Of a stretch of DNA of 64,000 bases, positions 4,148-45,768 are shown one piece after another. Both the position numbers and the translations under genes were made by a program. Origin of the DNA: Lingula anatina (lineage: Eukaryota > Animalia > Brachiopoda); assembly GCA_051362555.1 (NCBI GenBank), contig CM120643.1:23936848-24000847 (forward strand), given 5' to 3'. The notes below the pieces were generated by a model. The model saw only the letters and a list, made by a program, of their open reading frames with translations, was not told where the DNA came from and did not search any database. Positions within the stretch are counted from its first letter, which is position 1, and each line of letters starts with the position of its first letter.

Positions 4148-5424
4148 TCATTCATCCTCATCTTCATCATCGTCATCATCACCATCGTTGTCATCCACGA
4201 ACTTTACCAACTTTTGAAGGAGCTGAAATGCCGACAATATTTGCCTCGATAAATTTGCATAAATTTGCATAATGCAACTGCAGTTCTTTTATGGAATGAA
4301 GTGAATTTCTACCTGATCATTCCATCTCCAAAATAATTTCTTGAATAAATATTACAGTAATATACTGATCAATATACACTTAGATTTTAGTAAAACAGTT
4401 ATATGAAAAATTGGACATACATGTAATATCGTATTTTGTCCATGATGAAAATGATCATATTTAAAATGGCATAAAATGAACAATTTCCAGCCTGTTTACA
4501 GATGTGAATTGTTAAATGTTCACTGCAAGATCATTTAAGAAATTTCAACCAGCATAACTAAATGAGACACAACAGTGATCGACTGTTCTTTATGATAACA
4601 TCACAGTTTTTACCTTCGCCAAGAAGGTCATGTCTTTCCGTCTGTCTGTTTGTCATCAACATAACTCAAAAAGTTACGGACCGATTTTGATGAAATTTTC
4701 AGGGTAGGTCAGAAATGGGTCAACTTAGAAGTGATTAGTTTTTGGTGGTGATCCGGATCAATAATCAATCAATAATCAATAATAATAAAAAAAATCGTTG
4801 CCTTGGCGGAGGTCTGCGCTCTCGGAGTGCTTTTCTAGTTAGAAATAGTATTAAAATGATAACATTTAATCCTTTCAGTAAGAAATGCATTAAAAAACTC
4901 CACTTATGCTCGACAGCGCTAGCGTTGTAGTAGTCAGATCGACCATATTCCGGTTTATAACTATGATGTGAAAGCTCTTACGTCGTCGCTGTCTCTCTCT
5001 CCCGCTTCCTGGCCGTCTTCCATCTGCGTGGCTTCGTCCATTGAGCGACGACGGCGACGGCGGCGGCGGCGGCGGCTGCGGCGGGTATTACCTATAAGCG
5101 GAATTAAAAACAAACTTTCTCTGCAATAACATACATGCGCTCTCATTTGATATCCCAAAATATTTTCTCTTGCCTTTAATGTCGTTTACTAAAATTCATT
5201 AGTTTCTCAAAGCATTTTTCCGACGGCACTAGTAACTTTAGTTGTTGCGCAGGTTTGTGAAGGAGGGTTATACACAAGACTCAATGAACACTGGGGAACA
5301 AAACCAAAACAGTTTTATCTCTCCTTTTATCCCACATAGTATCATGCTTACCTTCCGATTCCTCAGACATCTCCACCAAGAGCATGATGGTCAAAAGCAG
5401 AGCAAACCACTTCAGCTTGTTCAT
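4148..5424 (-). CDS. Secreted poly-arginine peptide precursor, copy 1 (3 exons, 85 aa)
   Basis: Exons 5424-5352 (MNKLKWFALLLTIMLLVEMSEESE+G, donor GTAAGC, phase 1), 5091-4982 (GNTRRSRRRRRRRRRRSMDEATQMEDGQEAGERDSDD, acceptor ttatAG, donor GTAAGA, phase 0) and 4222-4148 (LLQKLVKFVDDNDGDDDDDEDEDE*, acceptor tttcAG). Splice sites, phases and frame are conserved in three paralogs. Confidence 0.9.
4608..4840 (+). mobile_element. Non-autonomous Helentron/DINE-like (HINE) element in intron 2 of copy 1
   Basis: Starts tttaccttcgccaagaagg, has a (GTCT)-like microsatellite, the subterminal inverted repeat ccttggcggaggt, a 3' hairpin gcgctctcggagtgc and ends ctagtt. Absent at the paralogous site of copy 2 (~14920, acagtttttacaaacagtag). 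Confidence 0.7.
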
Positions 5425-5560
5425 AGTGAGTGTGTGGCAACGGGACAGCAGTTGTCCTTGCAAAGGGCACGCACAGGCTGAAGGCGAAAACGCCCAACTC
5501 TCAGTTTTGTACCCTTGGAAATATCAATGTTCTCAACGCATGCGCAGTAATTGCATTATT
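5425..5560 (-). promoter_or_regulatory. Conserved 5'UTR/proximal promoter block of the poly-Arg peptide genes
   Basis: Closely similar blocks lie upstream of all five ATGs (also 15531-15670, 32454-32595, 37192-37330, 45769-45905), with GCGCATG and a TACAAAA TATA-like box about 85 nt upstream of ATG (variant in copy 3). Function is inferred. Confidence 0.6.
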
Positions 5561-6001
5561 CGAAAAAAAAAACTGATGTTGTACGATATTGTATTATTTT
5601 GTAAAAAATTCTGTCACTCTTAGTATTAACTTACAGCCTACTCACTTTCTGATTCTCTCTGGGCCAATTTACATCATTCACCAGCAGAATTTCAAAGAAT
5701 TCATTGCAACTGTGTATGTATCGTTGGTGTCGAGTCACGCGTGGAGGTCTTGAGGACTTTGAAAGTCGGGGTGAAGTATTCGTTTTTTAGGTTGACGACA
5801 ATTAAACTCTGCATAGCATCCTCTAAGTATTTCAACTCGTTCTACCCAAGTCTCACTTTTATTCCAAACTGCGTTCTTTAAACTTCAGACAAAAAAACTC
5901 ATATTGTTACCTTTCGGAACTGAACAGCTCTGTGTTTGATTCAATCTTCAATAGTCAAATATAGCTGGGAATTGTAGCCACAGCGCCACAAAGGAGAAAT
6001 C

Positions 6002-6265
6002 AGCATCTATGCAACCTTTGCCTGGGCAAAAAAACTGTTTATAATGATAACGCCAGATATACTCTTAATAAAAGAACTGAAATAATTACCATGTGTCGGC
6101 ATAAGGTGACGTAACTGACACGGCGTGCGACGGAAGTGTCGTCACGCCGTGTAGATAAACGACTAAAGAACCATTTTCAAATAAACCTCCTGACGATCGG
6201 GCATACCTTCTCTCGGAGTCGGGGTTGATACATGTCTCTTTTTTTAATTTATTTAATTAATTTTA
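6002..6265 (+). repeat. ~260 bp direct repeat, second copy at ~8080-8330
   Basis: ctatgcaacctttgcctgg...aaaagaactgaaataattaccatgtgtcggcataa...ggagtcggggtt occurs on both sides of the Tc1 element. Confidence 0.8.
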
Positions 6266-6358
6266 ATTGTGCATAAATTTTAATTGTGCATAAATGCTCC
6301 GGACAGTTGAGCAGTTGAGCACTCTGTACCACACTCACGCTTGTTATATAGGCATATA

Positions 6359-8018
6359 CAGACTTGACATTTAATATGGAATATTTCAGTTTCAACGGTA
6401 TGCTTAGGTAAAAATGCGTTCTTTTTTCATAAAACTCAGATCTCATATAAGACATCTGACTGGAGAAGTGTGAAGTCAGGTGTGTCGCTACCAATTAACT
6501 GACTACCAAGTCTGTTGCACTGCTGCATTGTGTAATATGCAGTGATTTTATTGGGTAGTGCTCCTTTGGGCTGGTCAAAGCTTGGCTTTGGCGAAGCATG
6601 ATTCTGTCAAAAAAGTATCCATATGTCGGCAACTACTGAATAGAAGGATTAAAAAATTTGCATGCAAGCGGTCGGTTTTGCAGTGCGTAAAATGAGTTCA
6701 ACTATGTTTTACAAAGTTGTTAATCTGTGCCAGAATGGCGCGAAAAAGACAGACATTGCAAGACAGATTATTGTGGCAAACGAAATGGTCTGCACAGTTC
6801 TATGGAGTTATGCCCAGACTGATGTATCTACACAGAGACCACGCCCAATGTATTGACATTTTACCACCAGGGCACAGGACTCACTGTCCTTCAGGATATG
6901 CTGCTGCAACTAAACAAAAGCCACCCAGTCCGTTCAGAATGAGGGGCAAATTGTGACCAAAACGCGTTTTTCAATGCTCTTAGCGAATACCAAACTAGTT
7001 TTAGCAGGTTAGAATACTAAACGACCTCTGAGGAAGCCACTGTAAACAGCAAAACAGCGTCGTCCGTCTATCTAATGAATTGAGGACCATGGCCGTTTCT
7101 GGGTAGAACACTGAAACCGCGTGGCTTTCTTTATTGAGGTCAGATTTCACCTGTACCGCTTAACTGGTCAAAACAGAGTTTACAGACATCCTGAAGAGGC
7201 CTACGACAAGGCGTGTGTCGCTTCTAAAGTGACTAGGGTCATTGGCATCGTCAGTATTTGGAGTGGATACCACATTGGTGCCAAAACACCAATGGTAGTC
7301 ATTGATGAAAACCTAAACCAGATGAAATAAAGAAATAATCTGGGAACCATTTGACTATCATTTGATAGGGGGCACCTTAGGAACAATTTTAGGTTGCACG
7401 ATGAGATTACCCGTTCACACAGAGCACTTTTAATAGCAGATAACTTAAAGAACCAAGGGATTGAGCAGATACATTGGTCATCAAAATCGCCATATTTGAA
7501 CCACATAGACAACACGTGGGTAGGTTATTACTCGCCGAATCAACGGCCTGCATGTCCTACAACAATTCTGAACCAAATTGGACAAGTTTTGACCGTTGCC
7601 TGGATTTTTTTCCAGATTAAACTCTAAAAACCTATCCTAAGGAATGCCTTGCCGCTTGAAAGCTCTGGTAGCAGCCAGATGAGGTCAGGTGTAACAGCGA
7701 CCGTTGCTGTGGCAAGACACTGACATGAGGGTCCTTTGTGGGGCGTGTAGCACTTTTAAAGACGATAATTTGGAAAATATGGAGATCCAAAATATCGCTT
7801 TCAATGGTTGTCGTACGACTTAAAATAGGCAATGCATTTTTGTTTGCTTCACTGGCGAATTCAATTAATGAACTGATGTCACAATGACATCAAAGGGATA
7901 CATAAAAGTTATTAAAACATGATTTTAATCCCTATTTTCATTTATCAGTCAGCAAAATAGGAAAAAACTGATGAAAAATAATTTGGAAAAAAATATTCCA
8001 TATTAAATATCAAGTCTG
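6359..8018 (+). mobile_element. Decayed Tc1/mariner DNA transposon, copy A
   Basis: TA|CAGACTTGACATTTAATATGGAATA ... TATTCCATATTAAATATCAAGTCTG|TA terminal inverted repeats with TA duplication. Broken transposase pieces: HTH-like KKTDIARQ, FIEVRFHL...RVYR, and WSSKSPYLNHIDNTW (WPxxSPDLNPIE motif). Confidence 0.9.
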
Positions 8019-8322
8019 TATATATATATATACCCAGTATGACATCAGATGGGACATCATAAAGAAATCAGGAAAAATCGGCACCTATGCAACCTTTGCC
8101 TGGACGAAAAACTGTTAATAATGATAACACCAGATACTCTAAATAAAAGAACTGAAATAATTACCATGTGTCGGCATAAAGTGACGTAATTAACACGGCG
8201 TGCGACGTAAAACGGCTAATAAAACCATTTTCAAACAAACCTCATGACGATCGGGCATATGCCCGTGAAACTTGGAGTCGGGGTTATTGCATGTCTCTTG
8301 TTTATTTATTTATTTATTAATC

Positions 8323-8328
<6 letters not shown>

Positions 8329-8398
<70 letters not shown>
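8329..8398. repeat. (TA)n microsatellite
   Basis: Seen directly. Confidence 0.95.
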
Positions 8399-12010: not shown

Positions 12011-12676
12011 GATATTGTTTGTTGTTTTCATTTTAGGTTCTCATGATGCTCTTGGTCCTCAGGTTGTATTCTTTGAACTATCAAGGTGTAAAAATTAAGC
12101 CAGTTCGTCATTAGTTGAAACTTCTTGTGTTCTTAGGCATTTTTTAGCATTTCTTAACAGTTTTATTTTTAAATAGTTATCGATTACCCCCTTTTATGTC
12201 TGTCTGAAGTTGAGTGGTATCTCCTTTGCGACAGTAACCCGACAAGTTTTCGTATTAGTCGACACTACTGAAAACACGATGAAGACGATATTAAAGCTGA
12301 TTTGTGAGATTGTGTTAGCTGAACCAATCCACCTTCCTCACACACATTTATGCAAACTTGCTTCTGGAGAGAATCTATATGGAGAGCACTCGAAGACCCT
12401 AGACCTCCGCCAAGGCAACTGAATTCTCATTATGATCAATTAATTATTAAAAAAAACATAGATATAGAGTCAAGTAATTTGATTAATGTATCATTGGCAT
12501 ACCAAGTACAGTAAAACACATACCTTGAGATGTTATGTGATCGATCGATTGTAAAACACTAACTGTCATCCCTAGTGAAATATGTCAGAATACCTCGAAC
12601 GAGAGCGAGACAGGTGCCCGAGAATTATTTCGTGGGAGGAAGGCGGCGCATTGTATCCCATACAGGAGACTTTGAT

Positions 12677-12967
12677 GCATTCACTACGAGTTGAGCCAGG
12701 CTTTACAAATCCCGGGGACTAAATATGGCGGACGTACATGAAAGAAAAACCGCCTAATCTTTTAATAGTCTCTCCTCTCACACGCCTCCCCATGTGTCGT
12801 CCCAATGGAGCCGAGATTTAATGACTGTCCCCCCGCAGGGACGACGTGTGGGGAGGCGTGTGAGAGGCGGAGAGACTATTAAAAGATTAGGCGGTTTTTC
12901 TTTCATGTACGACCGCCATATTTAGTCCCCAGGATTTGTAAAGCCTGGCTCAACTCGTTGTGAATGC
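12677..12967. mobile_element. Near-perfect palindromic MITE (~125 bp arms, ~35 bp spacer)
   Basis: gcattcactacgagttgagccaggctttacaaatcc... versus ...ggatttgtaaagcctggctcaactcgttgtgaatgc. Absent from the paralogous sequence near 30020-30045. Confidence 0.85.
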
Positions 12968-13973
12968 GATCTTTGTCACTGATTGTGCTAGATGATCGAA
13001 TGCAGTGGGCAGAAGTAGTGCAAAGGGATAGATTGTTATTTAAATTACGCACGTTGCGTTAATCTCTACTGGGTATTAAAAATATTATGAGAAACCATAG
13101 GGGTGGAGCTCATGGCAAAAGGAGACAAGACCGATGGAGGAAACGATGCTTGTGCAAGGCCGTGTTTCACTGATATACATGTAAATGGGTGGATGGTGAT
13201 ACGGAATACAAACACAATCTAAGAACCCTCAAGCCGTACTCAAGACAGCCCGTTTCGGACTTTTGCTAAAAATTTCATCAAAATACATTCATAACTTTTT
13301 AATTTCGTCTTTTTACAAGCTAGCAAACAAATAAACTCCTTGGCCGTGGTAGCAGGATTAAAGGTGTCCATTGTAAAGTATCCTCGCGAAAAACTCATAC
13401 TTAACACGTTTTGCTGGAGTAAACGACTATTTATTCGACCTAATACCATTTAATCGTTCTTCTCTGACACTCGCCATAACTAATAGTAGGTAAACTAGCT
13501 TTGGGAAAATTAAAAACCGGTGCTTAATCATGTCTAAATTGCGCACGATACAAAACTGTGTCAAGAATATTTTAAGGTGGCAAATTTTGGAATAGCTCCA
13601 AAGGTCAGTTTTTTTCTCTTTTAAAAAGCAATATTTATTGCAATTGAAAATTAAAATTACCCTTTTGTTTTAAGCACAATAAGGTGAAGCCAAGGTGTTT
13701 TCATGAACTTTCGGAAGCGTAAACCGATTCACACAAGATAATCGGCGACCACATGAATAGCGCGTTTTTGTACTTGACAGGTTCATAATGATATACAAGG
13801 AAAAATAAATACACCTAAAACTCTCTATCCTTCCATGCCGAGAGCCATTTTGTATTCATATGAACTGTTAACATGTAAAAAAATAGGGAATGCAAAATAT
13901 TCCCGCCTAAACGTTATCCCCATAACAGCAAAAATAAATAAACAAATAAATAAATAAATAAACTAAAATAAAA

Positions 13974-14004
<31 letters not shown>

Positions 14005-14501
14005 ACAAGAAAAAATAGCTCCAAGAGTAGATGTCAGATACTAATTCATACTGCCTTTGGAGATTTATTTAAAGAATCTAACCAAAACTACATCAACATT
14101 TTTTAAACATGAAACAGATAACAATTTGAAAGGAAAACGATCAGTAAAGAGAATAACAAATCGTCTGATTATACATGTATAGCAGAATGTCCCTGCATAT
14201 ATGTGTGCGTCCATGTGTTTCTGTGTGCGCGAGTTCGTGCATTCGAGCGTGCATGTGTGCCTGCTCGCGCTATCTACCATGGTGATCTTAGAACCCGGGT
14301 TCACTCAAACTTATTTAAAAACTTTGGCAGTTTTAGAACCTCTAAGTAAGGAATTGTCTGCGACAGTCCATATGATCTGATTGTGAAACAACACTGTTAA
14401 ATGCGTTTTCCTTTATAATATTGTGTCTGAATATATGCACTAGAAAATTTGTCATCAGTGTGCTTCTCTCGTGCCTGTGGTCAACTTATTGGTCGATTCA
14501 A

Positions 14502-15530
14502 TCATTCATCCTCGTCCTCATTATCGGCGTTATCGTCATCATCGTTGTCAGCCACGAATTTTACCAACTTTTGGAGGAGCTGAAATGCCAACAATATTTG
14601 GCTTGATAACCGCCTATACAATGTGCATAATGCAACTGCAGTTCTTTTATGGAATAAAGAAAATGTTTATCTGGACATTTCTTATCCAAAATCATTACTT
14701 GAATAAAGATTGCGGTAATATCCTAATCAGTATGCACTTAGAATTAATAATACCGTAATATTAAAATGGTCATATTTAAAATGACATGAAACGAAAAACT
14801 CACAGATTGTTGGAGTGATGTTAATTGTTAAATTTTCACTGCAAGATAATTTCAGAAATAGCAACCAGCATGACTAGATTAAATACAAAAGTAATAGGCT
14901 GTTCTTTATGATAACTTTACAGTTTTTACAAACAGTAGTAATATGATAACATTTAATCCTTTCGTGAAGAAATGCATTAAAAACCTACATTTATGTTCGG
15001 CCTGTGACTTGACAAAGATAGCGTTGAAGAAGCATCAAATTAGTTCCAACATACTCCTTTTTACAAATGAAATAACGATATGAAATCTCTTACCTCATCG
15101 CTGTCTCTCTCTCCTGCTTCCTTGCCATCTTCCACCGCAGTGCTATCGCCAAAGCCGCGACGACGACGACGGCGGCGGCGTCGGCGACGGCGACCAAAAA
15201 TACCTAAAAGTGGAAACAATTTTTTTCTCTACAGTAACATACACGTGCTCTCTTGCTTTCCCAAAATATCTTCCTGTGTCTTTTATGATGTTTGTCATAG
15301 TTCTTTAGTTTCTGAAAGCATTTTTCTGACAGAACTAGTACCTTTCATGAAGGATGATCATACCCCCCCCCCCCCCCCATACATGGTACTTTATGAAAAC
15401 TGAAAATAAAAAAAGCAAATTTATATCTCCTTTTAACCCACAATATCTTATGCTTACCTTCCGATTCATCAAACATCTCCACTAAAAGCATGATGGCCAT
15501 CAGCACGGCGAACCACTTCAGCTTGTTCAT
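14502..15530 (-). CDS. Secreted poly-arginine peptide precursor, copy 2 (3 exons, 86 aa)
   Basis: Exons 15530-15458 (MNKLKWFAVLMAIMLLVEMFDESE+G), 15203-15094 (GIFG-R12-GFGDSTAVEDGKEAGERDSDE) and 14579-14502 (LLQKLVKFVADNDDDDNADNEDEDE*). GT-AG introns, phases 1 and 0. Confidence 0.9.
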
Positions 15531-18500
15531 AGTGAGTGTTAGTTTACGGGATAGCAGGAATCTTTTCAACGGCCACGCGCAAACTGGAGGCGAAAACGCC
15601 CAACTCTCAGTTTTGTAGCCCAAGAAATGTCAAAGTTCCCAAGGCATGCGCAGTGATTCCATTCTTTGGAATAAAAAATAAAAGATGTTTTACGAAATTG
15701 TGATGAAGATATAAGACCTGTCACTTTTGGTGCAACTTTCAGACAACCTTGGTTAATTATTAATTATTGAAGCTTTGTGCATCGCTTTTAAAAAGTGTGC
15801 AAGTAATTTATGCCAACAATGTAAAAATGACTTGATAAGATGTGATAAGATTGTTAGATTTGATAATTTGATGCTTTCACTAAAAACATTCCACATAAAA
15901 CTTGTGTTCATCATTTTAACAGCAACGGTCTTAGTATCAAAGGGACAGAAATGAAAAATAGTTTCAAACAAAAAATGACATGACATTATTTGCATACAAA
16001 AACATTCATTCGACCGTGTATTGCTTGGTATTTAAATAAAAAAATACGGAATGTATTCTATTGTTAAAATTCTGACACTCTTAGCTTTAACTTACTGCAT
16101 GTTTACTCCCTGGTTCTCTCTGGGCCAATTCACATCATTCACCAGCAGAATTTCAAAGAACTCATTGCAACTGTGAATGTATCGTTTATGTCGTGCGTAG
16201 GCGTGGAGAGAGAGAGAGCATATCATCCTGAAGACTAAAAAAGTCGGGGTGAAGAGTTCGTTTTTCAGGTTCAAGACAGCTGAACTCCTCATTCTGCTTA
16301 ACAACCACTAAGCATTTCAACGCTTTCTACCCAAGTCTCACCTTTAAAGTTCAGAAAATATCTCATATCTGTAGAACCTCCCTTTTTGAACAGAAAGGTT
16401 TAGTGTTTAATTCAATTTTTAACAGTCAAATATAACTTGGAATTGTAGCCCACAGCGGTTATTCTGTCTACTTGAGCTCTGCTATATTAATTGCGGAGGT
16501 CGAACGTAATTGTTGTTTCTTTTTATCATGCACTATTCGCACAATTTTTATCATGCATATTTACGTATCTGACCACATTACAAACACAAAATACACTATA
16601 AGAGTGTGGATTTAACAGTGCCCAAAGCACAGGAACCGTGCATTACTGTGTCACCGTGTAACACGAAATGAGATGCTTTACCTTAGTTAAACAGTGATGT
16701 GCGCCACTATTAACAACACCATGGAAAATAGTCAAATACCTCATGTGACCGATCTAAAAAAAGACTTGTGTGCAAAGTACATTCTTTCACCGAAAAAAAT
16801 TATCCAGAAACGGTTTTTTTTTCTTTTGTGTGTATACATATAACAGCCATGGGGGTTTGGTCAACAAAATAGCAGAAATAATTTATGGTTTAAAGGTAGA
16901 AATTATCAGCATTCTGATTCATTCGACCAGAAACAGTGAAGTTAGACGGTAATCCAAAAGTAATAATATGACAGGATTTTTTTTTTTTTTTTTTTTTTTG
17001 CAAACAAAAGCATTCATTGGACCATATATTGTTTGACACTTGAATGACAAAAATCTTTGAGAGTAAACAAAAATAATACTTCACGTGCCGAAAACTGGCC
17101 CATCATTGAGCATTCATTCTGCAACCAAAGCCATGCTTGTGCCTTTTTCTACGACCTCAGCGATGTCAGTTTCATGGTCGAACAACGGACGCAGAAGGGA
17201 CGCCCTCCAGTGTAAAGAGGGTTTGTTTAATTCATACACTGGTACATTATACATGTACAACTGTATGTCAGTTTAAGTACTATCAATACGAGCAGACATT
17301 GAGAGTTATTACTGCAACTTTGCTGTGTTCGTTGACAAGTGAAATCTAACGGATCTAATACCAGGCCTGCCGCAAACTCTCTTGCAAAATTGCTGTAAAT
17401 TTGCCAGAACAGAGATACTTTCTTGCAAAATACCAGTTAAATTAAGATGTTTTTGGAAATTTGCTAGAATATAAAAACTTTCTTCTTGCAAATCTGCTTC
17501 AAACTAACGATGCTCTTGCAAATCTGCTGTAAATTAGATGAAATACAAAATTTTCCTGCAAAATGGTTGCCACAAACTTTTAGACTTTAAGTTTGCAGCA
17601 AATTGCTGCAATCTTTTCATTTTTCTAATGGTATAAAGTTATGTGTGCGTCTCAAGATAGAGAGAGAGACAAGGAGAATGAGAGAAAAAATATTGTCTGG
17701 AGAAGTTTGTAAGTCGGGATGAAGTTCTAGACTATTAAGCTGTTTATTCTAAACCACTAAACATTTAAACAAGTTCTGAAAAAGTCTCGCGTTTCAGCCA
17801 AATTCGCCTCCTTTAAACTTTTACCTAAATCAGAACAGCTCATTGTTCTTATATACTGGGGGTTCAATATACCCATTTTGAATGCAAAGAATCTTCGTCA
17901 AATTATGTTACACTTTCAAGGGCGCCTGGTAGTGCATTTTTTTTTTTGTCCCCAAGGTGGTTGCTGTGTACATGTCCTGTCAACTATCAGTTGGTTGTGT
18001 ACAAAAGCTCTCATGCATTCATTATTCCCATTTTCGAGATAATGAAAAATCGAGGTGCTAGACTTAAATTTAGATGCCTATTCTCCTTTCCGGACTTACG
18101 TTGTTTCAAAAATGCTCTTTTCAGTGGGACCTGTCACCACTTTTTTGTATCATAGATATCTCTTACCAGTACAACAGCCACGCTTTTCAATCTCCTTGTC
18201 AAATTATGACAATATCAGATTATTAGGTTTTAGTGTCGTAAATGACAACATAAAGCCTGTATTCAAGCGTTCCCCTCCAGCACTGCAAACAGAGACCAGT
18301 GCAATAAATCTTTTCACACTGTATTGTCAAGTACCTACACGGTAGTTATCTTCAAAACAATTTAGTAGTATTATTTTCATGCACACCATGTCGCACCAGG
18401 ACAGATATATAATGTCTACTCTAAGTCACACAGACGACTCGTGCAATATGATGTATTGTTAAAGACTAATAATTCTACAAAATTCACTAAGTAGATACCA

Positions 18501-18654
18501 GTAGGTACACCAATATGGACGTTCTTTGAGTCAATATAAATACCAACCTATCACAGGGAATTCCCTCGAAAATGCACAAATGATTCACATTTAACGGATC
18601 AAATTTAACGTTCCCTGCGGAAAATGCAACGATATTGTGGTTGGTATTTGTCAC

Positions 18655-26378: not shown

Positions 26379-26580
26379 GTTTTCCAAAGAATAAGGTTCG
26401 AGTATGGTTTTTGTGATACATGATGTTCAAAGAACTGTTAAGTGAAGATCTAATGGTATTTGGGAGTACCAAAGCTATTGTATAGTGAGTTAATAGTTAC
26501 AGTTTACCAGTTACATTGTTTCATGTGTAAGTTAGTTTTGTTTGTTTGTATAGAAAATCAATTAGATTTTGGCTGGGGAG

Positions 26581-29135: not shown

Positions 29136-31301
29136 ATTTGCTGGCGAATCCAGTGTTTTGTTTTCTATATAGAAGGAATACTGATAAACAGCATTTTCAT
29201 TCGGCTTACTCACCCTCCAAACCTATTAGAGGAACGTACATGTAAATGTTAAGCAAAGTTGGGTGTTCTAGAATTAAATTTTCTTTTTAATCTGCTTATT
29301 ACAATATATTTTTCTTACGGAAAACCGTTTTATTTGTTCAATGGTAGGATGGCCGTCGCCATGTTGGATCTCATTCTTACACTTAATTATGGCCTGCACC
29401 ATATTGACGATACCTCAAATGGCCCATTATTAAGGGTAAAAATAAAAAGGGTAGAAAGCCCTTGGACAAGTGTGAGGAAGAGAAGTGAGGAACCTCGCAT
29501 ATGTAGAACATATTTCTTGCTTGTAGGGTATAATTGCCTACACATTTGTGTCAATAACGTCATTAATTAAATGTTGCAATTAATGTAATTCACAAGTTTA
29601 ACTAAATTTTCATATTAGTCGACACTATACATAAAACACGATGAAGACGACGTAAAAGCCAATGTGTGAGATTGTGTTAGCTGAACCAATCCACCTTCCT
29701 AACACACATTTATGCAAACTTACTTCTGGAGAGGATCTAAAATTTCAGTGGTAAATGGAGAACACTCGAAGAACGCAGACCTCCGCCAAGGCAACTGGAT
29801 TCTCATTATTCTCAAATTATTATGAAACAAATCACAGATATAGTGTCAAGTAATTTGGTAAATTAAGGCATTGGTGGTATACCGATTACAAGGGTAAAAC
29901 ACACACCTTGATATGTTATGTCATTGATCCATTTTCAATAAATAGTAACTGTCATCCAGAGAGAGATATGCAGAGACAGGTGCCCAAGACTTATATTGCG
30001 AGAGAATGGCAGTGTAGTGTATCCCATACAGGGCACGTTGTCATTGATTGTGCTATTGTTGTCAAAATGCAGTGGGCGGAAATGGTATAATGGGATAGAT
30101 TTAAATCATGCACATTGCATCTGTCTCGACTGAGAATTTAAGATTCATGTAAAACCAGAGGGGTGGAGCTTACGGCAAAAGCGTGACAGGACAGATAGAG
30201 AAAATATCCGCAAACGAAGCCTCTGCAATGTCGCGTTTTACCAATAAACCAGCATATAGGGTTAATGGTGATACGGATCACCACCAAAATCTAAGTACTT
30301 TCAAGTTGGCCTGCTTCGGACCTATTCTGAAAATTCCATCAAAATTCATCTATAAGCTTTTGAGTTAGGCTTATTACAGGCTAACAAACAAATAAACGGA
30401 GGTGAAAACGGAACCTTGGCGGAGCTAACAAGACTAAAGGCGTCCATTATAACTTATCCTCTCGAAAACCGGACTTTATTCGGCCTAATACCATTTAATC
30501 CTTCTTTTCTGACACTCGTTATAACTATAGTATGTAGCTATGGGAAAATTGAAAAAACTTTAACTGATGCTTAGATGTTTTTTTTTTAATTCGACCATTA
30601 CTTCGTGCACTGCCTTCCATATCCTGCACGATTAAAAATTGTGTCAAGGATGGTTTAAGGTGCTGAGCTTTGAAATACCTCGAAAGGTCAGTTTTTTATC
30701 CTTTTTTGATAAGTAATGTTCATTACAATTAAATACTGAAATCATACTTTCGTTCTAGGGCACAAAAAGGTGAAGACGGAGCTTAAAGTAAACGTCAATG
30801 CTTTGATGAACTTCGGTGGGGTATACAGATTTTTTTCTCACAAGATAATCGTCAACCACATAATGGATCCATTTGCCAAATGCTTTGGAGAGCTTTATAG
30901 TGCAAAATAAATACACGAAAAAAGGTGGATCTCTCTATCCTTACATACTGAGAGCCATTTTTATTCATATAAATTGTTTACATAAAAAGAAGAGGAAATG
31001 CAAAATATTCCCGCACAAACGTCATCCTCATAACATCGGCGAAAGTTAATAAGAAATATTCAAAATAGCTCCAAGAGTTTATGGCAGATATTAGTCCAAA
31101 CTTTATGGCAGATATTAGTCCAAACTTTGTAAAGAATCTAACCATTGCTACATTAACATTTTTGAACGTGAAAAAGACAACAGTTGGAAAGAAAATATAA
31201 TCAATAAAGAAAATAATAAACCGTCTGATTATATATATATATATATATCAGAATGTACCTGTTTATATGTATGCGTCCGTGTGCTTGTGTGTGCACGTGC
31301 C

Positions 31302-31337
<36 letters not shown>

Positions 31338-31607
31338 CATGTGTGTCTGTTTGGGTCAATCCTGCTCGCACTATCTACATGTACCACGGTGCTCTCAGTA
31401 CTCGGGTTCACTGAAACTTATTCAAAAATATTGGCAGTTTTAGAACCCCTACGTATTAATTATCCGCGGCAGTCCATATGATCTGATTGTTAAACTAAAC
31501 TGTTAAAAGCGTTTTCCATTAAAATTGTATCTGAATATATGCATTTCCAATTTTTGTCATCATTGTGCTCTCCTTCGTGACTGTCCTCAAATTACCGGCC
31601 GACTCAG

Positions 31608-32453
31608 TCATTCATCTTCATCTTCATTATCGTCGTCGTCGTCTTCATCAGCGTTTTCAGCTTCGAGGTTTACCAACTTTTGAAGGAACTGAAATGCAGA
31701 TACCATTCGCCTTGATAACCTTTTCAATGTGAGTACTGCTACTGCAGTTCTTTTATGAAATAAAGTAAACTTGTACCTGGACATTCAGTCTGGACATTCA
31801 GTCTCCAAAACAATTATTAAAATAAACATTACTCTGATATAATGATATGCACACAGCAATTTAGAGTACAGTAATTTAAAATGATCACATTACACATATG
31901 TTCGACTGGTGATTTGTCCATGACAGCGGAGTAATACATGCATCTAATCAGATCGACCATATTCTGTTTTAGAACTGATCTATGATGTGAAATCTCTTAC
32001 CTCGTCGCTGGCTTTCTCTCCCGCTTCCTGGCCGTCTTCCACCGCAGTGCTATCGCCAAATATGCGACGACGACGACGACGGCGGCGGCGGCGGCGGCGT
32101 CGGCGACGGTGACCTGAAAGTGGAATTCAAAAACTTTATCTGCATTAACATACATGTATATGCGCTCTCTCTTACTTTTCCAAAAATAAATTTCCATGTC
32201 TTTCATGTGTGTGTCCCATAGTTCATTAGTTTTTGAAAGTATTTTTTTTTCTCTGACAAAACTGGAAGCTTTTATTGTTGTAAAGGTTTGTGAAGGATAA
32301 TCATACACGGGACTCAATGAAAGCTTAAAAAAACAAGACAATTTTATGTCTTCTTTTATCCCACATTGTCTTATGCTTACCGTCCGATTCATCAAACATT
32401 TCCACCAGAAGCATGATGGCCATTAGCACGGCGAACCACTTCAGTTTGTTCAT
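31608..32453 (-). CDS. Secreted poly-arginine peptide precursor, copy 3 (3 exons, 88 aa)
   Basis: Exons 32453-32381 (MNKLKWFAVLMAIMLLVEMFDESD+G), 32113-32001 (GH-R15-IFGDSTAVEDGQEAGEKASDE) and 31688-31608 (FLQKLVNLEAENADEDDDDDNEDEDE*). GT-AG introns, phases 1 and 0. Confidence 0.9.
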
Positions 32454-32642
32454 AGTGAGTGTCAGCGTGGCCACGGGATAGCAGGAGTCTTTCCAACGGC
32501 CACGCACAAACTGGAGGCGAAAACGCCCAACTCTCAATTTTGTTGCCCAAGAAATGTCAAAGTTTCCGAGACATGCGCAATTATTGCATTTTTCCAAAAA
32601 TAAAAATACGTAATGCTGTACTACATGTAGATTGTTCTAAAA

Positions 32643-32925
32643 CAGTGACGGATTTAGAGGGGGGTCAGAGAGGGGTCCTGACCCCCCCCCCCTTCGGTTT
32701 CTGAAAAATATATCACATTAATATTCCCCTTTTGGTTTTAGAATTTTGACTAGCTAAATTATAGTTCTAGATTTTACCAAAGGACACTGTTTACTCTCCA
32801 AAACACCAAGAAATTTTCGAGCCCTTGAACAGGCCCCGAGCCCCACACCAAGGGGGCGATGGTCAACTTCGCATCCGAGGCCTGTCGTTTCGGCCCCCCC
32901 TTCAAATACTCCTGGATCCGCCCAT
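32643..32925 (-). mobile_element. CAGGGGCGGATCCAGG-family repeat copy, inserted just upstream of the copy 3 promoter block
   Basis: Ends cctggatccgccc; inverted relative to the 10060 copy. Not present at the equivalent position upstream of copies 1 and 2. Confidence 0.6.
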
Positions 32926-35900
32926 GCTAAGAGAAGGCCTGCTGTCATCACCTGGGTATAGGGACAATTTTCAGACGGCCAAGGTAAAATATTTAACATT
33001 AAAGCTTTGTGCGTTGTGTCTACAAAATCGGCAAATAATTCATGGCACCGATGTCACTCCACATTAACCTTGTTTTTATCATTTTGACAGCTGGTGGCTC
33101 TAGTATCAAAGGAACAGAAATAAAACACAGCTTCAACCAAAAACTTGCAGGATATTATTTGCACACAAAAACATTCATTAGACCATGTATTGCTTGGTAT
33201 TTGAATGAGGAATACAGAATTTTATGTATTTCATTGTTATCATGCTGACAAACCTTGTATTAACTTATTTCATGTTCACTTCCTGGTTCTCTCTGGGTCA
33301 ATGCACCTCATTATTAAATGACACCATTGGAACCGCTGGGGTCACAGGTCGAAAAGAACACGTCTACACATGGTCTATTTTGTTTCCATGCGGTAACATC
33401 TCTTCCTTGAGATAATTTTGAAATCGCATTAAGTTTTTTTTTTTTACTTAAACTGAATTCTTTGTTTGCTTTATTAAAATTTGATTTATAAGATCCAGGT
33501 TAAAGACAGTGCCAGGGTATGCCTTCCACTCTCATTCACCGTGCCTTGAAGTCAAGAATCCCTTGCTACCGGTACATTGGATCTGAGTGATTCTCTTGTA
33601 GAGTCAAACACTTGCATCAAGCGGAGCCCATCGTGACTCTACTTTGGAGTCGGGGACGGCGTCAACTTGTCTCCAATTGTGAGTTATTTTAGGCACCGTT
33701 GCTGGACACAAGCAGAATTTTAGAGTAACTGCTGCTACGGTGTACTTTATGTAAATCTATAACTACATGTGGAGAATGGAGAGAGAGAGAGAGAGATTGT
33801 ATTGTCCTTGAAAGTCGGGGTGAAAAGGTATTTTTCAGGGTAAATTAAGACAGTCAAACTGTTCATTCTGAATAGCATCCGCTAAGCATTGCAACGTTTT
33901 GCTACCCAAGTCTAACCTTTGGTCAATACTACGTTCTTCAAACCTTCGGAAACTTTTCCAAATCTTTACCTTTTCGAACAGAATGGCTCAGTGTTCGATT
34001 TAATCTTCAATAGTCAAATATATTTTCAAGAATTTGGAGTTGTATCCCATGGTTGTAGTTCTGGCCACCTTTGGGCTTCTATTAATAATGGAGGTTGAAG
34101 CATACTGTTGTTTTTTTTTTTATCATGCATTATTAATCACTACTTTTATCACGCATTATGACTTATTTGACCACGAAACAAAAACAAAATACACTCTGAG
34201 AGTATATATTTAACAGTGACTGCCTTAAACAAGGTGACCGTGCGTCACACCTACAATGTAGCGAAGTAAGCATTCTTATTTCATTTTGGACACCCATTCT
34301 GTAGTTATAATATGACAGGATATTTTATGTCTCCTTGATCTAAGCTAATTTGAATGTAACAACATGCTGATAAAGTAATGTGACAAACTCAAGTATGATG
34401 TTCGAAATTTGGCCGGTGACGGCCGCATTTATTGAAAGTCCCAATACTTAGAGAAATGAAGCAGACTAATAATAAACACTGAATAGTGTTGACAAATGAC
34501 ATTTAACATTAATGTGTGCGCCTGAAATATCTACATTTAAAATAAAATTTCCAAAGAAATAGTGCACATCCCTATTTGCACACAAAATCATTCATTGCAC
34601 CATCTTTTGTTTGACATATGAATGAAAACGTCTTATTTTATGCTGGACATGTCATAAATGTGCCCTTGTTCTTTGAGAGTCGGTTCACTATTTATGAACG
34701 GGGATGGTGTAAATCGCCATGGACCCTGTTTCCGTGCAGTGACATCTTCTTTAAGAGATCATTTTGACAAACCCAGTCGTGTCCCCGACACGTTACTAAC
34801 AGATCAGCTCATTGTTTGAGACAACTCTTATACACTGGGGGTACATGTAAATGCAGTTTCAAGTATACACCGAAATTGTAAATTGTAAAATATTTTTACA
34901 TTGTAAAAATATGAATAAGACAAAATACCCAAATAAGTTTCAACCAATTAGTATTCACGTCTTCCACATCTGCTGGTCCTCGTTCTTCAAGATGCCCTCT
35001 TGTAGGACGAAGGATCTTCGTCTTATTTTGCCACAGCTAGAAGGCCCCAGGTAGAGTGCAAGGTGGTTGCTATATACAGTAAATCACCTTGTCAGTCAGA
35101 TTGTTTTCAAGCATTGGCATTCATTTATTATTTTCATCTTCGAGATAATGAAAACAATTGCTTTGCGATGTCAAATGTTATAATAAATAACGGTACCTAT
35201 TCTCCTTTCCGGACTTACATTGTTGAAAAAATTCGTTTCAGTCGGTACTATCACCACTTCTTTGTGTCATATAATTATCTCTTCCTACAGACACACTTCA
35301 ATTTCCTTGACGTATAATGACAACCTCAAGTTAACAGGTTTTGGTGTCGTAAATTACAACATATAGAATTTATTTAAGCAAAACCCTTCAGCACTGCAAA
35401 CAAACGGGACCACTGTTATTAAAGCTGCAACAAATCATTGTCAAGTAGTTATCTTCGAAACAATTTAGGAGTTTTATTTTCATGCACAACCTAACGGACC
35501 AGGACAGATATAAGATGTCTACTCTAAGTCACACAGAAGACTCTTGCAGTACGTTGGATTGTTAGAGCTAGGCTATTAATTTCAACAAAATTTCACTCAA
35601 TAGATACAGTTGTACCAGTCGGTACACCAATATAGTGTTCTTATTTGAGTAATAATGGCCTGACATTCATCGTCAATGGTGAATTTTTACAGGTCATATT
35701 TTCTTATATACCTTGTACCGGCTGGATCGATCCACCTCCGCGGGGAATTTTCCCTTAAGTGCAATCAACTCGATTATCCATGAACATCTAGGGGGTAATT
35801 TGAGAAATCGATTTTTTAGTTTTTACCCCAATATTGCGATTATGACGTCACCCGTAAGATGGCATATATGTAAATGCTATTAAAGTTAGTCACTGAACAC

Positions 35901-37113: not shown

Positions 37114-37191
37114 TTAGCAATATTGCTTAGAGTTCAAGAGCAAGAGCAAGAGCCAGGCCAAGAGCAAGGCAAACCACTTCAGCTTGTTCAT
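37114..37191 (-). pseudogene. Truncated poly-Arg peptide paralog (promoter plus first half of exon 1 only)
   Basis: MNKLKWFALLLA then diverges into (CTCTTG)n, giving WLLLLLLNSKQYC*. No GTAAG donor, and no exon 2 or 3 homolog downstream. The upstream block 37192-37330 is conserved. Confidence 0.8.
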
Positions 37192-39631
37192 GGTGAAGGT
37201 TAGTTGGCTAAGGGATAGCAGGAGTCTTTTCAACGGCCAGGCGCAAGCTGAAGGCGAAAACGCCCAGGTCTCAGTTTTGTAGCCCTGGAAATGTCAAAGT
37301 TCCCAAGGCATGCGCAATAATTCCATTTTTAGAAAGAAATTCAGTGACGCTGAACGTGATTGTGCTGAAAGAAGACACACCGTTGTTGCCTAGGTTTTTC
37401 GGGACAACTTAGAGACGGCCTAAGTTGGTTACCTATCACTGAAGCAATATAAGAAAGAGTTGATAAGAACATGCGAACAAAAAACATTCTACCATAAAAT
37501 TTTTATTGTTATTTATTTTGAACAGCAACTACTCAGGACGTGTTAATGACATAGGGACAGATAAAAAGACGAGTTTGGATTTGAAATCATACTTATTTAA
37601 ATTCATTGGAACAAAAGCTGACAGGAAAGTTTTGCACTCCAGAACATTTATTCGACCATGTATTGTTTGAAATTTGAAGAAGAAACAGAATGCATTTTTT
37701 TTATTATACTGACATATCACGTATTAAATAACTGCATGTCCATTGAGAGTCATTGATGTTCACTTGAACTTCTTTTTCAGGATCAAGACGATCAAACTGT
37801 TCATTCTGAATGGCAACCACTAAGTAATCGGATAAGCTAAGTAGATGTAACATTGTTTGCAAATAATTGCTCATGCTAAATATATAATATTTAGGATGAC
37901 GGATGTTATTTGACATTTTGGTGGTCTTTTGCAACCTTACAAACGAAATTTGCGCAAAATTGATTGTAAATGATAACTTTTGCTGACTCGTTGCATCATA
38001 AATTTTAGGATGATGAGTCGTATTGAATATTTGATACATATATTGATATGATAACCCATTGGCCATAACATTTAATCAAGGCAACAATTGTTATATTATT
38101 AAATGATTAGGACAGATGGGGTTATACTGTATTATAAAAGCGGCCTTGTATTTACTTATTCACTCCCTGGTTTTCTGCAGGTCAATTCACATTATTATCA
38201 GAAGACGCCGACAATGAACCCGTTGAGGTTACCAGTCGAACAGGTTATACATATGCTATTTTTGTCTCCTTGCAATGACAACTCCTTCGTGAGATCATTT
38301 TGACATCCCCAGCCGAATTTTACACTCCCAGTTCCAGTACGTTTTGTGCTATGCTCTGTCAGTTCTGCATTGTTACATGTGGCTGCCGTTCATGGATGTA
38401 GAGCCAAACTGTTGTGTCTTTTATCATTTCAGCGTGTTATGAACAAGTCTCCCCTTTTGGTCGAACTTTTTTTTTACCCAAAGTGTACATGCGCATTAAT
38501 TAACAGAACATCTCATTGTTTTTATGCAATGTTCATTATTCAAACATACTGCAAGAAGATGAAGAAGGATCAAATTAACAAGCATGCGTGCTTCACACAC
38601 TCGTACATATCTCCTTTGAAAAAATCAAATTATAAAAATACACAACAAATCTTCAGCTAAGAACACTATACATAGCGACTGAAAGGGTCTGAGATGTATT
38701 ACTTTGTCGGTTCATGTCTCCCACATCTGGTTGCTCATGAAAGAGATTGCAAATTGCAGTTTAAAGAGAAAAAGTCTTTAACTTTGCATGCTGCGTGCAT
38801 GAGAGGATACCGCTATTGTTTTTAAATTCTAAAAAAGAAAAAAATCGACTTGGTTTTCTTTTTTTTTCTTTTGCAAGATTTGTATTGTGACGTAGGTCTC
38901 GTTATGCTAATACAGGGCCCTTAGTTGGAGTAAAGTACTGCATAAAGTAAAAAAAAAACTTTATTTTGAGCACTGTCACTACCGGCGCATGTGAATATCC
39001 CCACCCTGCAGACATTAGAAGCATGTTATAGGAAGGCTGCAACACCTGACAAATATGCAAAGGCTGTGAATCCAAACACTGTTTCAGAATGTGGTTCTAA
39101 GTTTGATTTTCCAAGTGGATGCCGACCGCATTTTTGCTGATTCTGCATTCGATGTCAAATACCTGGCGTATAGTGACACGCAAGGCACAAATTAAGCCTT
39201 TATAATGATTCACAATTATTTGTTCATTTTGTCGTATTATGAACGCAGAATCAGATGACTTTGCTCTTAAATGCATGTACTTAGATTTATCATCGTTTAC
39301 ACCACATAAAATGTATGATAATATTTTAACATATAACCATAACATTTCCAGATTATTTTTTTATCAGTTGTGAAGCTACATGTACCCTCACCGTGTAAAG
39401 TCAACTCCACCACTACATGTACGAGTTTGAGTAATGAGCAGTATGGCCGCAGGTTTCGACATGGGGTACATTTCAACTCACAAACTTTTCTTAATTGCAA
39501 TAACAATTGCCCGATGATTTTGTATTGGAGGTTCATACCAAGGGCTTGGATTCCAGCTCCTAAAACATATACCTGTTTGAGTACAAGTTAAACATCTGTT
39601 TATTTAAGCAGACCACCAAAGCCCATTCCAA

Positions 39632-43959: not shown

Positions 43960-44340
43960 CGAAATCTGCGGTCTGTAGACCAATTGCTACTCAACCCAGT
44001 ATGCGATTAAAAACCTACGGTGATATATCTTTCAAAGCTGCAGGTCCAAAGGAATGGAATCTATTACCGCTGGAAATCCGAGCAATTCAGTCTACCAAAC
44101 ATTTTAAAAAAGAACTCAAAACATACCTTTTTAGGAAATATTTTGATTAACTCTTAATTGGTTTTATAAATTTTGTATTAATTGCATTTAATTGTATGGA
44201 ATAATGGTTGTTTTGCCTAGATTTTATTTATGATATTTTATGTATTATTATTTATGATATTTTATGTAAAGTCTACTGAACATTTTAAATGGATTTTAGA
44301 CTTAAAATAAATTTATCATTATTTATTATTATTGTTATTT
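43960..44340 (+). mobile_element. 3' fragment of an L2-group LINE
   Basis: LKTYGDISFKAAGPKEWNLLPLEIRAIQSTKHFKKELKTYLF is the typical L2 ORF2 C-terminus; AATAAA and a (TTA)n-like tail near 44305-44338. Confidence 0.8.
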
Positions 44341-44982
44341 TACACTCGAAAGTAATCCGGACAGCTTCACAATGTATTTGGAGATACGACAAATAAGCTT
44401 ATCATCATCATTTAAAATAAAAAAGAAAGCCACTTGGTATTCATACAAACTGTGAATCGTGAAAAGAGTAAGAATTGCAAAAGGTTCCCGCCAAAACGTT
44501 ATCCTCATAACATCAGCAAAAGACAATTAAGAAAACAACCAAGATAGCTCTGAGATTTTATTTCAGATGCTAGACCAATTTGCACTTTGAGAGTTACAGT
44601 AAGAATCTAATCATTTCTACATCAATATTTTTCAAAGATTTAAAACAACAATACTTGAAAGGAAAATTGAATCTATACCAGTATGTCTCAGTATTTGTGT
44701 ACGTGTGCGTGAGTGTGATTGTGTGTTTGCATGCATGTGTGCTTGTGTGTGACAATCTTCCTCGCGCTATCTACACTATGGTTGTTCTCAGAACTCGGAT
44801 TGACTCAAACAAATTCCGAAATACTTGGTTGTTTTTGAAACCCAAAGTATGAAACTGTTAAAATGAATCGTTTTTCATTAACGTTGTGTCTGAACATATG
44901 CACTTGAAATTTTGTCGTCAGTGTGCTCCTCTCTCTCTCTCTTTTTCATGGCCGCATGTCGTCAAAATATGGGTCGATTCAT

Positions 44983-45768
44983 TCATTCGTCATCGTCATC
45001 ATCACCATCCTCATCGTCAACTTCGTTGTCATCACTGTCATCCTTAAATTGCACCAACTTTTGAAGGAGCTGAAATGCCGATAACATTTACCTGGATAAT
45101 CATCTTTACATTGTGCATAATGCTACTGCTGCATTACTTTCATGAAATAAAGTACATTTCTCCCTGGTCGTCCAATCTCTAAAATAATTACTAAACTAAA
45201 GTAAACATTTAAATGATGTTATTTGATGATTTCAAAAAGATATCCATTAACTTCAATTATGTTTCTCTGATGATTTGGCAATGACAAGTGATCAGATTAA
45301 AAAACGGCTTGGAACTGATCTAATGATGTTTTGTGTGTAAGCTCTTACCTCGTCGCTGGCTTTCTCTCCCGCTTCCTGGGCGTCTTCCACCGCAGTGCTA
45401 TCGCCAAAGCTGCGACGACGACGACGACGGCGGCGGCTGCAGAGGCGGCGGCGCCGAAAGCCTAATTGCATAATTTGCGAAAACCCAGTAGTATATATGC
45501 CCTCCCTGTTGCTTAGCCAAAAAATCTTCCCATTTCTCAGTTAACCCTTATTCATAAGTTTATGCATTTTTTACTGACAATATCATTTAATTTAGTTTGA
45601 ACAGTTTCGTGAAGGATGATAATACAGAGAACGGAATACAGTAACAAAATCAAGGCACTTTTATTACTCCATTTAGTCCACATAGTCTTTCTTACCTTCG
45701 GATTCATCAAACATCTCCACCAAAAGCATGATAGCCAAGAGCACTGCAAACCACTTCAGCTTGTTCAT
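44983..45768 (-). CDS. Secreted poly-arginine peptide precursor, copy 4 (3 exons, 90 aa, single Cys)
   Basis: Exons 45768-45696 (MNKLKWFAVLLAIMLLVEMFDESE+G), 45461-45349 (GFRRRRLCSRRRRRRRRSFGDSTAVEDAQEAGEKASDE) and 45069-44983 (LLQKLVQFKDDSDDNEVDDEDGDDDDDE*). GT-AG introns, phases 1 and 0. Confidence 0.88.

What the first reader, a model, noticed from the sequence alone, without database searches (positions are those of the whole stretch)
4148..45768. Tandem family of secreted poly-arginine peptide precursors: candidate natural R12-R15 host-defence or cell-penetrating peptides
Seen: four intact three-exon genes with conserved splice sites and phases, one module per exon. Exon 1 is a signal peptide ending ESE/D-G. 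Exon 2 starts with NTRRS-R10, IFG-R12, H-R15 or F-R4-LCS-R8, then an acidic linker. Exon 3 is an LLQKLV helix plus a D/E tail. Established: signal + cationic peptide + anionic C-terminal propiece is the layout of linear AMP precursors such as piscidins/pleurocidins, tunicate clavanins/styelins and mussel myticalins, and synthetic R8-R12 oligomers are classic cell-penetrating peptides. Protamines are Arg-rich but lack signal peptides and acidic tails. Inference: a secreted, nearly homopolymeric oligo-arginine effector family that I do not recognise as described. Alternative roles are polyanion/mineral binding, mucus or adhesive coacervation, or toxin. ORF finders miss it because exons are 73-113 nt.
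Basis: partly seen in the sequence, partly recalled or inferred. Interest (0 to 1): 0.92.

Follow-up and report, generated by a model that had tools for sequence, protein, structure and literature searches.

The report
Lamp-shell poly-arginine peptide precursor family
Four intact tandem genes, likely from the lamp shell Lingula, encode predicted secreted precursors in which a short, almost pure arginine peptide is followed by an acidic tail; they likely serve host defence, but no activity has been tested.

Summary
Four intact minus-strand genes have three coding exons each, at the stated coordinates; a fifth copy is truncated. Each encodes 85-90 aa: signal-like exon, 17-18-aa core with 12-15 Arg, acidic tail. 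The signal exon is under purifying selection (pN/pS 0.12). The only database relative found is an uncharacterised Lingula anatina RefSeq protein (XP_013400961.1) with the same layout, whose matches break at the predicted junctions, so the window is probably from Lingula. In three of four genes the core ends F-G-D, which would give an amidated peptide by clavanin/styelin-type cleavage (inferred). Best reading: host-defence peptide precursor (0.55). Against it: the cores are not amphipathic, and a similar secreted Ciona peptide (R8-His-rich-R9) had no or weak activity on E. coli, which also shows natural secreted oligo-arginine is not unprecedented. RNA support is thin: few reads in 1 of 4 runs, gene 1 only, no junction listed. 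The key Lingula immunity paper (Gerdol 2018) could not be read. The scan had not noted this elsewhere. Verdict: new variant of a known kind, interest 0.55.

The parts
5352..5424 (-). g1 exon 1, signal-peptide-like (24 codons + 1 nt), phase-1 donor
   Evidence: best 11-aa hydropathy window 3.05
4982..5091 (-). g1 exon 2: core NTRRS-R10-SM (12 Arg, no Gly before the acidic part) and acidic linker
4148..4222 (-). g1 exon 3: LLQKLV segment and Asp/Glu tail, stop
   Evidence: low read depth over this exon and the 3' flank in run X7
15458..15530 (-). g2 exon 1, signal-peptide-like
15094..15203 (-). g2 exon 2: core IFG-R12-GF, then G-D and acidic linker
14502..14579 (-). g2 exon 3: LLQKLV segment and acidic tail, stop
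32381..32453 (-). g3 exon 1, signal-peptide-like
32001..32113 (-). g3 exon 2: core H-R15-IF, then G-D and acidic linker
31608..31688 (-). g3 exon 3: FLQKLV segment and acidic tail, stop
37114..37330 (-). g5: truncated fifth copy; conserved upstream block, ATG at 37191 and about the first 12-17 codons, then unrelated sequence and a stop; no donor site, no exon 2 or 3
45696..45768 (-). g4 exon 1, signal-peptide-like; 24 of 25 residues identical to XP_013400961.1
45349..45461 (-). g4 exon 2: core F-R4-LCS-R8-SF (single Cys), then G-D and acidic linker
44983..45069 (-). g4 exon 3: LLQKLV segment and acidic tail, stop
15531..15660 (-). Conserved block of about 130 nt upstream of the ATG (given for g2; present in all five copies). 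A TATA-like word lies 32-33 nt before a CAG that is 55-59 nt upstream of the ATG: promoter and start site, or a splice acceptor after a non-coding exon (undecided)
   Evidence: function inferred

Best explanation
These are four intact tandem genes, likely of the brachiopod Lingula, whose spliced products are predicted to be secreted precursors that would release short, nearly pure arginine peptides likely used in host defence. Steps: (1) shown: gene structure, open frames, module per exon, selection on exon 1; (2) inferred: exon 1 is a signal peptide cleaved after S-E/D-G; (3) inferred: the acidic linker and tail (19-22 Asp/Glu against 15-17 Arg/Lys after the signal) neutralise the core during storage; (4) inferred: the tail is cut off before the first Asp, as reported for styelins and clavanins, and in g2-g4 the exposed Gly is used for amidation, giving 17-18-aa peptides that end in Phe-amide; (5) inferred: the freed polycation binds microbial surfaces and polyanions and acts by charge binding or entry into cells, not as an amphipathic pore-forming helix.
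For: Layout signal / cationic core / anionic C-terminal part is that of myticalins and of 17 of 22 Ciona candidate antimicrobial precursors. Conserved signal and tail around a variable core, in a tandem family with a truncated copy, is the pattern described for such families: here exon 1 pN/pS is 0.12 while cores differ in length and content across the 4 genes and the Lingula relative. G-D directly follows the core in 3 of 4 window genes and in XP_013400961.1; styelins and clavanins are cut before D or DD and are C-amidated. Ciona KH.C7.94, whose listed core ends RRRFGDTA, was active at 6.25 uM on E. coli, S. aureus and yeast. Myticalin C peptides carry consecutive Arg stretches. None of the Lingula shell-matrix proteins in Tables 25-26 of the genome paper exceeds 16% acidic residues, against 27-31% here.
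Against: The cores have only 1-4 hydrophobic residues in 17-18 and cannot form the amphipathic helix that defines the known linear peptides. The closest compositional analogue tested, Ciona KH.L63.9 (F-R8-His-rich-R9-W), showed no or weak activity on E. coli, and the Arg-rich KH.C7.94 was among the low-salt-resistance peptides; seawater salt would screen a purely electrostatic mechanism (inference). An Arg run is also a target for furin-type convertases, which cut at strings of basic residues, so the core may not survive secretion. g1 lacks the Gly. No tissue, induction or peptide data. For g1, exon 1 and 2 bins had reads in 1 of 4 runs only, at mean depth under 2.5, and no exon-exon joint is among the 15 rows shown (18 rows hidden).
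Confidence: 0.55

Rival explanations
1. Structural or matrix peptide: the Arg core binds phosphate, apatite precursors or sulphated glycosaminoglycans in the shell, pedicle cuticle or burrow mucus, and the acidic tail binds calcium or forms a complex coacervate with the core.
For: Lingula has a fluorapatite shell and expanded sulphotransferase genes; many of its novel shell proteins are small and basic; guanidinium-phosphate binding is established chemistry (own knowledge).
Against: The shell proteome paper reports no secreted acidic proteins, and no listed protein matches 27-31% acidic residues. Caveat: that proteome relied on gene models that may lack these genes, and trypsin would destroy an Arg run (inference). 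A variable core with an amidation-type Gly fits a released peptide better than a matrix polyampholyte.
Confidence: 0.15
2. The Arg run is a convertase substrate or inhibitor and not a microbicide: it is either cut and trimmed away, leaving the acidic LLQKLV-containing peptide as the product, or it survives as a natural inhibitor of furin-type proteases.
For: Furin cleaves at strings of basic residues, and polyarginines inhibit furin and related convertases (nanomolar for D-arginine amides). The start of exon 3 shows some constraint (pN/pS 0.44).
Against: A cleavage site needs 2-4 basic residues, not 12-15 (own knowledge). The conserved G-D after the core would have no use. The inhibition constants I read are for D-peptides or cyclic peptides, not natural L-forms.
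Confidence: 0.12
3. Reproductive secretion: a protamine-like polycation released in gamete granules or coats that condenses or binds egg-jelly polyanions.
For: Protamine-like composition; tandem, fast-changing family; g1 reads in only 1 of 4 runs suggests restricted expression (tissues are not given).
Against: No direct evidence; the layout with an anionic tail and G-D has its known parallels among defence peptides.
Confidence: 0.1
4. Not functional genes: a duplicated segment with a CGC microsatellite that happens to lie in frame.
For: The Arg runs use only CGN codons in blocks of CGC and CGT, as slippage would give; g1 reads are few.
Against: Four open frames with conserved splice sites and phases, exon 1 pN/pS 0.12, run lengths that change in whole codons, and a RefSeq relative with the same joins. 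Slippage probably explains how the runs change length, not why they are kept.
Confidence: 0.03

Closest known systems
Lingula anatina uncharacterised protein XP_013400961.1 (P0001, 101 aa)
   Same: Same family: signal exon 92-96% identical to g2 and g4, Arg runs with a C-S motif like g4, G-D, linker ending ASDE, LLQ segment and acidic tail; tblastn blocks end at the predicted junctions
   Different: Longer, His-rich core (11 Arg, 6 His in 30 aa); not encoded in this window; no function assigned, and its database name is uninformative
Tunicate linear cationic peptide precursors (clavanins, styelins, Ci-MAM, Ci-PAP, Ciona KH.C7.94 and KH.L63.9)
   Same: Signal / cationic core / anionic C-terminal part with a helix; no dibasic site, cut before Asp; KH.L63.9 has R8 and R9 runs; KH.C7.94 core ends RRRFGD
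   Different: Active members are amphipathic helices; no sequence homology was detected; different phylum, so likely convergent (inference)
Myticalins and modiocalins of mussels
   Same: Lophotrochozoan, linear, Arg-rich, three-part precursor, signal consensus ends E-C-E-G (here E-S-E/D-G), multigene family with pseudogenes
   Different: They have a Lys-Arg site before the tail, signal and core in one exon, about 31% Arg at most on average (subfamily C) against 67-83% here, and are restricted to Mytilida
Piscidins / pleurocidins of fish
   Same: Signal, cationic peptide, anionic C-terminal prodomain (recalled, not read in a call)
   Different: Amphipathic helices (recalled); no Pfam match to such a family
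Synthetic oligo-arginine cell-penetrating peptides and furin inhibitors
   Same: Runs of 8-15 Arg; amidated forms are the classic reagents
   Different: Synthetic; nothing here shows uptake or inhibition by the natural peptides

Membership tests
Linear cationic alpha-helical AMP precursors (Ciona LCAMP / clavanin / styelin type) | N-terminal signal peptide | tested here: met
   Basic N-region, 11-aa hydrophobic stretch (Kyte-Doolittle 3.05-3.31), Ser at -3 and Gly at -1. SignalP was not available.
Linear cationic alpha-helical AMP precursors (Ciona LCAMP / clavanin / styelin type) | Short cationic core after the signal | tested here: met
   17-18 aa with 12-15 Arg and no acidic residue
Linear cationic alpha-helical AMP precursors (Ciona LCAMP / clavanin / styelin type) | Core forms an amphipathic helix | tested here: not met
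   By composition: 1-4 hydrophobic residues, at the ends, around unbroken runs of 8-15 Arg
Linear cationic alpha-helical AMP precursors (Ciona LCAMP / clavanin / styelin type) | Anionic C-terminal proregion beginning at Asp | tested here: met
   Linker net -6 to -8, exon 3 net -9 to -13; Asp directly after the core or after one Gly
Linear cationic alpha-helical AMP precursors (Ciona LCAMP / clavanin / styelin type) | Proteolytic release and amidation of the core | not testable with these tools
   Only the G-D motif is seen (3 of 4 genes and P0001)
Linear cationic alpha-helical AMP precursors (Ciona LCAMP / clavanin / styelin type) | Antimicrobial activity of the core | not testable with these tools
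   Analogues point both ways: KH.C7.94 active, KH.L63.9 no or weak activity
Myticalins / modiocalins | Lys-Arg convertase site between core and anionic extension | tested here: not met
   Core is followed by F-G-D or M-D; no Lys-Arg
Myticalins / modiocalins | Signal peptide and mature peptide in one exon, phase-1 intron after the dibasic site | tested here: not met
   Here a phase-1 intron separates signal and core and a phase-0 intron splits the acidic part
Myticalins / modiocalins | Sequence similarity of signal peptide and tail | tested here: not met
   The exon-1 profile found 1 candidate, the Lingula protein (the search needs shared 5-residue words, so distant kin can be missed); only the E-x-E-G end resembles the published consensus
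Piscidin / pleurocidin, clavanin, styelin, LEAP-2 (Pfam families) | Pfam match at the curated cut-off | tested here: not met
   12 exon peptides: 2 of 12 gave a weak LEAP-2 signal-region match (E 0.22, 11.8 bits against cut-off 27), the rest none; P0001: 6 unrelated families, all below cut-off
Lingula shell matrix proteins (Luo et al. 2015) | Listed in the shell proteome | tested here: inconclusive
   No row of Tables 25-26 has more than 16% acidic residues or 85-101 aa, against 27-31% here; sequences are not given in what I read, and detection bias is likely
Protamines | Nuclear protein without signal peptide or acidic tail (recalled) | tested here: not met
   Conserved signal-like exon and acidic tail in all four genes

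The most novel reading that the evidence does not exclude
Lingula makes natural amidated oligo-arginine effectors (up to R15, some disulphide-linked through a single Cys) from dedicated secreted precursors with a built-in polyanion safety catch, and they work as cell-penetrating or polyanion-condensing agents, or as convertase inhibitors, not as amphipathic pore formers: a gene-encoded counterpart of the synthetic R8-R12 reagents.
Probability: 0.2. Interest if true: 0.85.

Novelty: new variant of a known kind. Interest (0 to 1): 0.55.

Why it matters
If the cores are released intact, they would be among the purest natural secreted oligo-arginine peptides, and would show what animals do with a chemistry known mainly from synthetic cell-penetrating peptides and furin inhibitors. 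They would also be candidates for linear defence peptides in brachiopods, for which a review calls the data on such peptides very fragmentary. The peptides are 17-18 residues and easy to make, so the question is directly testable. In an animal with an apatite shell, the matrix alternative would also be of interest. The value falls if Gerdol et al. 2018 already described the family or if the peptides are as weak as Ciona KH.L63.9.

Tried and rejected
No whole genome is held for this window, so copy number elsewhere and synteny were not examined. Run search on the g2 region: no RNA holder listed, 9 raw RNA runs offered by species label; not evidence either way. Reads were laid on gene 1 only, 4 of the 9 runs; genes 2-4 have no read data. 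In X1, X2 and X4 the depth at 4086-4231 comes from an unrelated GAT-repeat transcript (loose ends at 4152 and 4186) and was rejected; reads at 4524-4961 and 6276-8027 are from dispersed repeats. Protein searches with exon 2: no candidate for the g1 exon-2 frame; 0 of 1489 candidates scored with the exon-2 alignment against longer proteins; the 1.84-billion library gave 3 hits, all long repetitive proteins with no Arg run longer than 2, rejected. P0001 itself did not reach threshold, so these exon-2 searches are insensitive and their blanks say little. ESM Atlas: no usable feature hit for g3 exon 2 or P0001; structure rows are unusable at pLDDT 0.42. Rfam: 0 matches. A separate upstream non-coding exon was considered; the candidate donor is not conserved in the four-way alignment, so it is unsupported. 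No fold or complex prediction was run, since the chains are short and of low complexity. The 140 other open frames listed were not scanned. Earlier scan notes: none by sequence or place, one unrelated by words. Gerdol et al. 2018 (doi 10.1016/j.dci.2017.12.021) is not in the library and was not read.
Full report
Observation. A six-frame scan found four Arg runs on the minus strand, each followed 0.3-0.8 kb later by an L/F-LQKLV segment and an Asp/Glu tail. Exon 1 is 73 nt in all four, exon 2 is 110-113 nt and exon 3 is 75-87 nt. All 8 introns are GT-AG, with phases 1 and 0. Products are 85-90 aa. A fifth copy at ATG 37191 keeps the upstream block and the first codons, then breaks off.

Is it more than chance? 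The four runs are the only runs of five or more CGN codons in the window. Exon 1 is 82-92% identical between copies, the introns 58-80%. Exon 1 has pooled pN 0.054 and pS 0.44, ratio 0.12, over 6 pairs that are not independent. The linker (0.85) and the first 10 codons of exon 3 (0.44) rest on few sites and show little or moderate constraint. The Arg runs use only CGC, CGT and CGA, in blocks, so slippage probably changes their length (inference), always in whole codons.

Relatives and organism. Exon-2 searches found nothing usable, but they also failed to score the true relative, so they are insensitive. A profile of the five exon-1 frames found 1 candidate among 5.8 billion clusters at 13-107 aa: XP_013400961.1 of the brachiopod Lingula anatina, E 1.4e-11, named only 'uncharacterized'. 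It has the same signal, an Arg- and His-rich core, G-D, a linker ending ASDE, LLQ and an acidic tail. tblastn against the window matches all 12 exons, and the blocks change at its residues 25/26 and 73/74, the predicted junctions. This is independent support for the splice model, though I did not see that gene's exon structure. The window is 37.6% GC; a Lingula anatina assembly is 36.5%. I infer Lingula or a close lingulid. The four window genes were not among the candidates, so they seem to be absent from that protein collection.

Expression. Reads were laid on gene 1 only, from 4 of 9 offered runs. Run X7 has mean depth about 10-15 over the 3' flank and exon 3 bins, about 1 over the exon 2 bin and about 2.4 over the bin holding the 3' part of exon 1. 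The purely intronic, non-repeat bins (4232-4523, 5108-5253) are empty in all four runs, which fits mRNA. Against a firm reading: X1, X2 and X4 have nothing on exons 1 and 2; the tool skipped the Arg repeat at 5042-5090; no exon-exon joint is among the 15 rows shown (18 hidden); and all 22 reads at 4033 differ from the window, so they may come from another allele or a paralogue. Tissues are not given. Genes 2-4 are untested.

Anatomy of the product. Exon 1 reads as a signal peptide: basic start, 11-residue hydrophobic stretch (hydropathy 3.05-3.31), Ser at -3 and Gly at -1 (SignalP not available). The cores are 17-18 aa with 12, 12, 15 and 12 Arg. After the signal there are 15-17 basic and 19-22 acidic residues, net -3 to -7, so the tail can neutralise the core. 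In g2-g4 the core ends Phe-Gly-Asp; in g1 the Gly is replaced by Asp. Styelins and clavanins are cut before D and DD (PMC7387483, Discussion) and are C-amidated, a step that needs a terminal Gly (PMC10608444, passages). I infer peptides ending in Phe-amide for g2-g4. g4 and the Lingula relative have one Cys in the core, which could link two chains as in dicynthaurin; this is untested.

What it works like. The three-part layout, the conserved signal around a variable core, tandem copies and a broken copy match myticalins (PMC5577615, passages; PMC12294457, passages) and the Ciona precursors (PMC7387483, first fifth of the text, passages, Discussion and supplement search). I put host defence at 0.55. 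Two results count against it. The cores cannot be amphipathic helices. And Ciona KH.L63.9, a segment of a predicted secreted precursor with R8 and R9 runs around a His-rich stretch, showed no or weak activity on E. coli; the figure itself I could not see. KH.C7.94, with short Arg runs among aromatic residues and a listed core ending RRRFGDTA, was active at 6.25 uM but had low salt resistance. If the Lingula peptides defend, they likely do so by charge binding or entry into cells, perhaps inside low-salt granules or phagosomes (inference).

Rivals. Matrix role (0.15): Lingula has a fluorapatite shell, but the genome paper found no secreted acidic shell proteins, and no row of its Tables 25-26 exceeds 16% acidic residues, against 27-31% here (PMC4595640, passages and supplement part 9); trypsin and missing gene models could hide these peptides. 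Convertase substrate or inhibitor (0.12): furin cuts at basic strings and polyarginines inhibit it, with nanomolar values for D-forms (PMC4482483, passages). Reproductive secretion (0.10): no direct evidence. Non-functional repeat (0.03): contradicted above.

Membership. It is not a myticalin (no Lys-Arg site, different exon layout, no sequence match), not a member of any Pfam peptide family and not a protamine. It fails the amphipathic-helix criterion of the Ciona class while sharing that class's precursor plan. It works like these families without belonging to them.

Is it in print? Ten literature searches (seen as listings and abstract starts unless named above) returned no paper on a Lingula or brachiopod oligo-arginine peptide. 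Two reviews of marine peptides have no occurrence of 'brachiopod' (PMC13518417, PMC10608444), and two Lingula genome papers none of 'antimicrobial' in the main text. PMC7203481 (passages) calls data on such phyla very fragmentary and cites Gerdol et al. 2018 on Lingula immunity. That paper is the most likely place for a prior description and I saw nothing of it, so novelty is provisional. PMC9985452 (passages) was used only for the status of polyarginine as a synthetic cell-penetrating class. The scan's own notes hold nothing like it.

Verdict. Real, intact, lineage-restricted gene family; new variant of a known kind of precursor; function inferred, not shown. Interest 0.55. The bolder reading, natural cell-penetrating or convertase-blocking oligo-arginine effectors, has probability about 0.2 and would merit 0.85.

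Noticed in passing
window 19618-27405: Intact-looking BEL/Pao LTR retrotransposon between g2 and g3: 1803-aa frame with Peptidase_A17, RT and integrase matches, terminal repeats of about 825 nt at 99.9% identity and a 5-nt target duplication, so a very recent insertion.
   Followed up: partly
window 37114-37330 (-): Truncated fifth family copy: upstream block and start of the signal exon only, then a short 6-nt repeat and a stop.
   Followed up: yes
window 45349-45461 (-) and P0001: A single Cys inside the Arg core (R4-LCS-R8; R5-HCS-R6 in P0001) could link two chains; P0001 adds a His-rich stretch like Ciona KH.L63.9.
   Followed up: no
window 5759-5963, about 16240-16620, 33808-34218, 47109-47220: A second conserved non-coding block 0.3-1.5 kb upstream of each gene; a distal regulatory element or non-coding exon is possible, but no donor site is conserved.
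   Followed up: partly
window about 4640-4840: Small dispersed repeat inside g1 intron 2 that attracts many RNA reads from other loci in all 4 runs.
   Followed up: no
window 6371-8026 and 50170-51777: Two copies of a 1.65-kb element at 90% identity, with diverged RNA reads in all 4 runs on the first copy; probably a transposon remnant.
   Followed up: no
window 53328-54341 and 56480-57654: Arrays of a 162-165-nt unit in inverted orientation to each other, about 2 kb apart.
   Followed up: no
window 12244-18526 vs 29604-35642: Flanking blocks around g2 and g3 align at 66-79%, showing that the family grew by duplication of multi-kilobase segments.
   Followed up: partly
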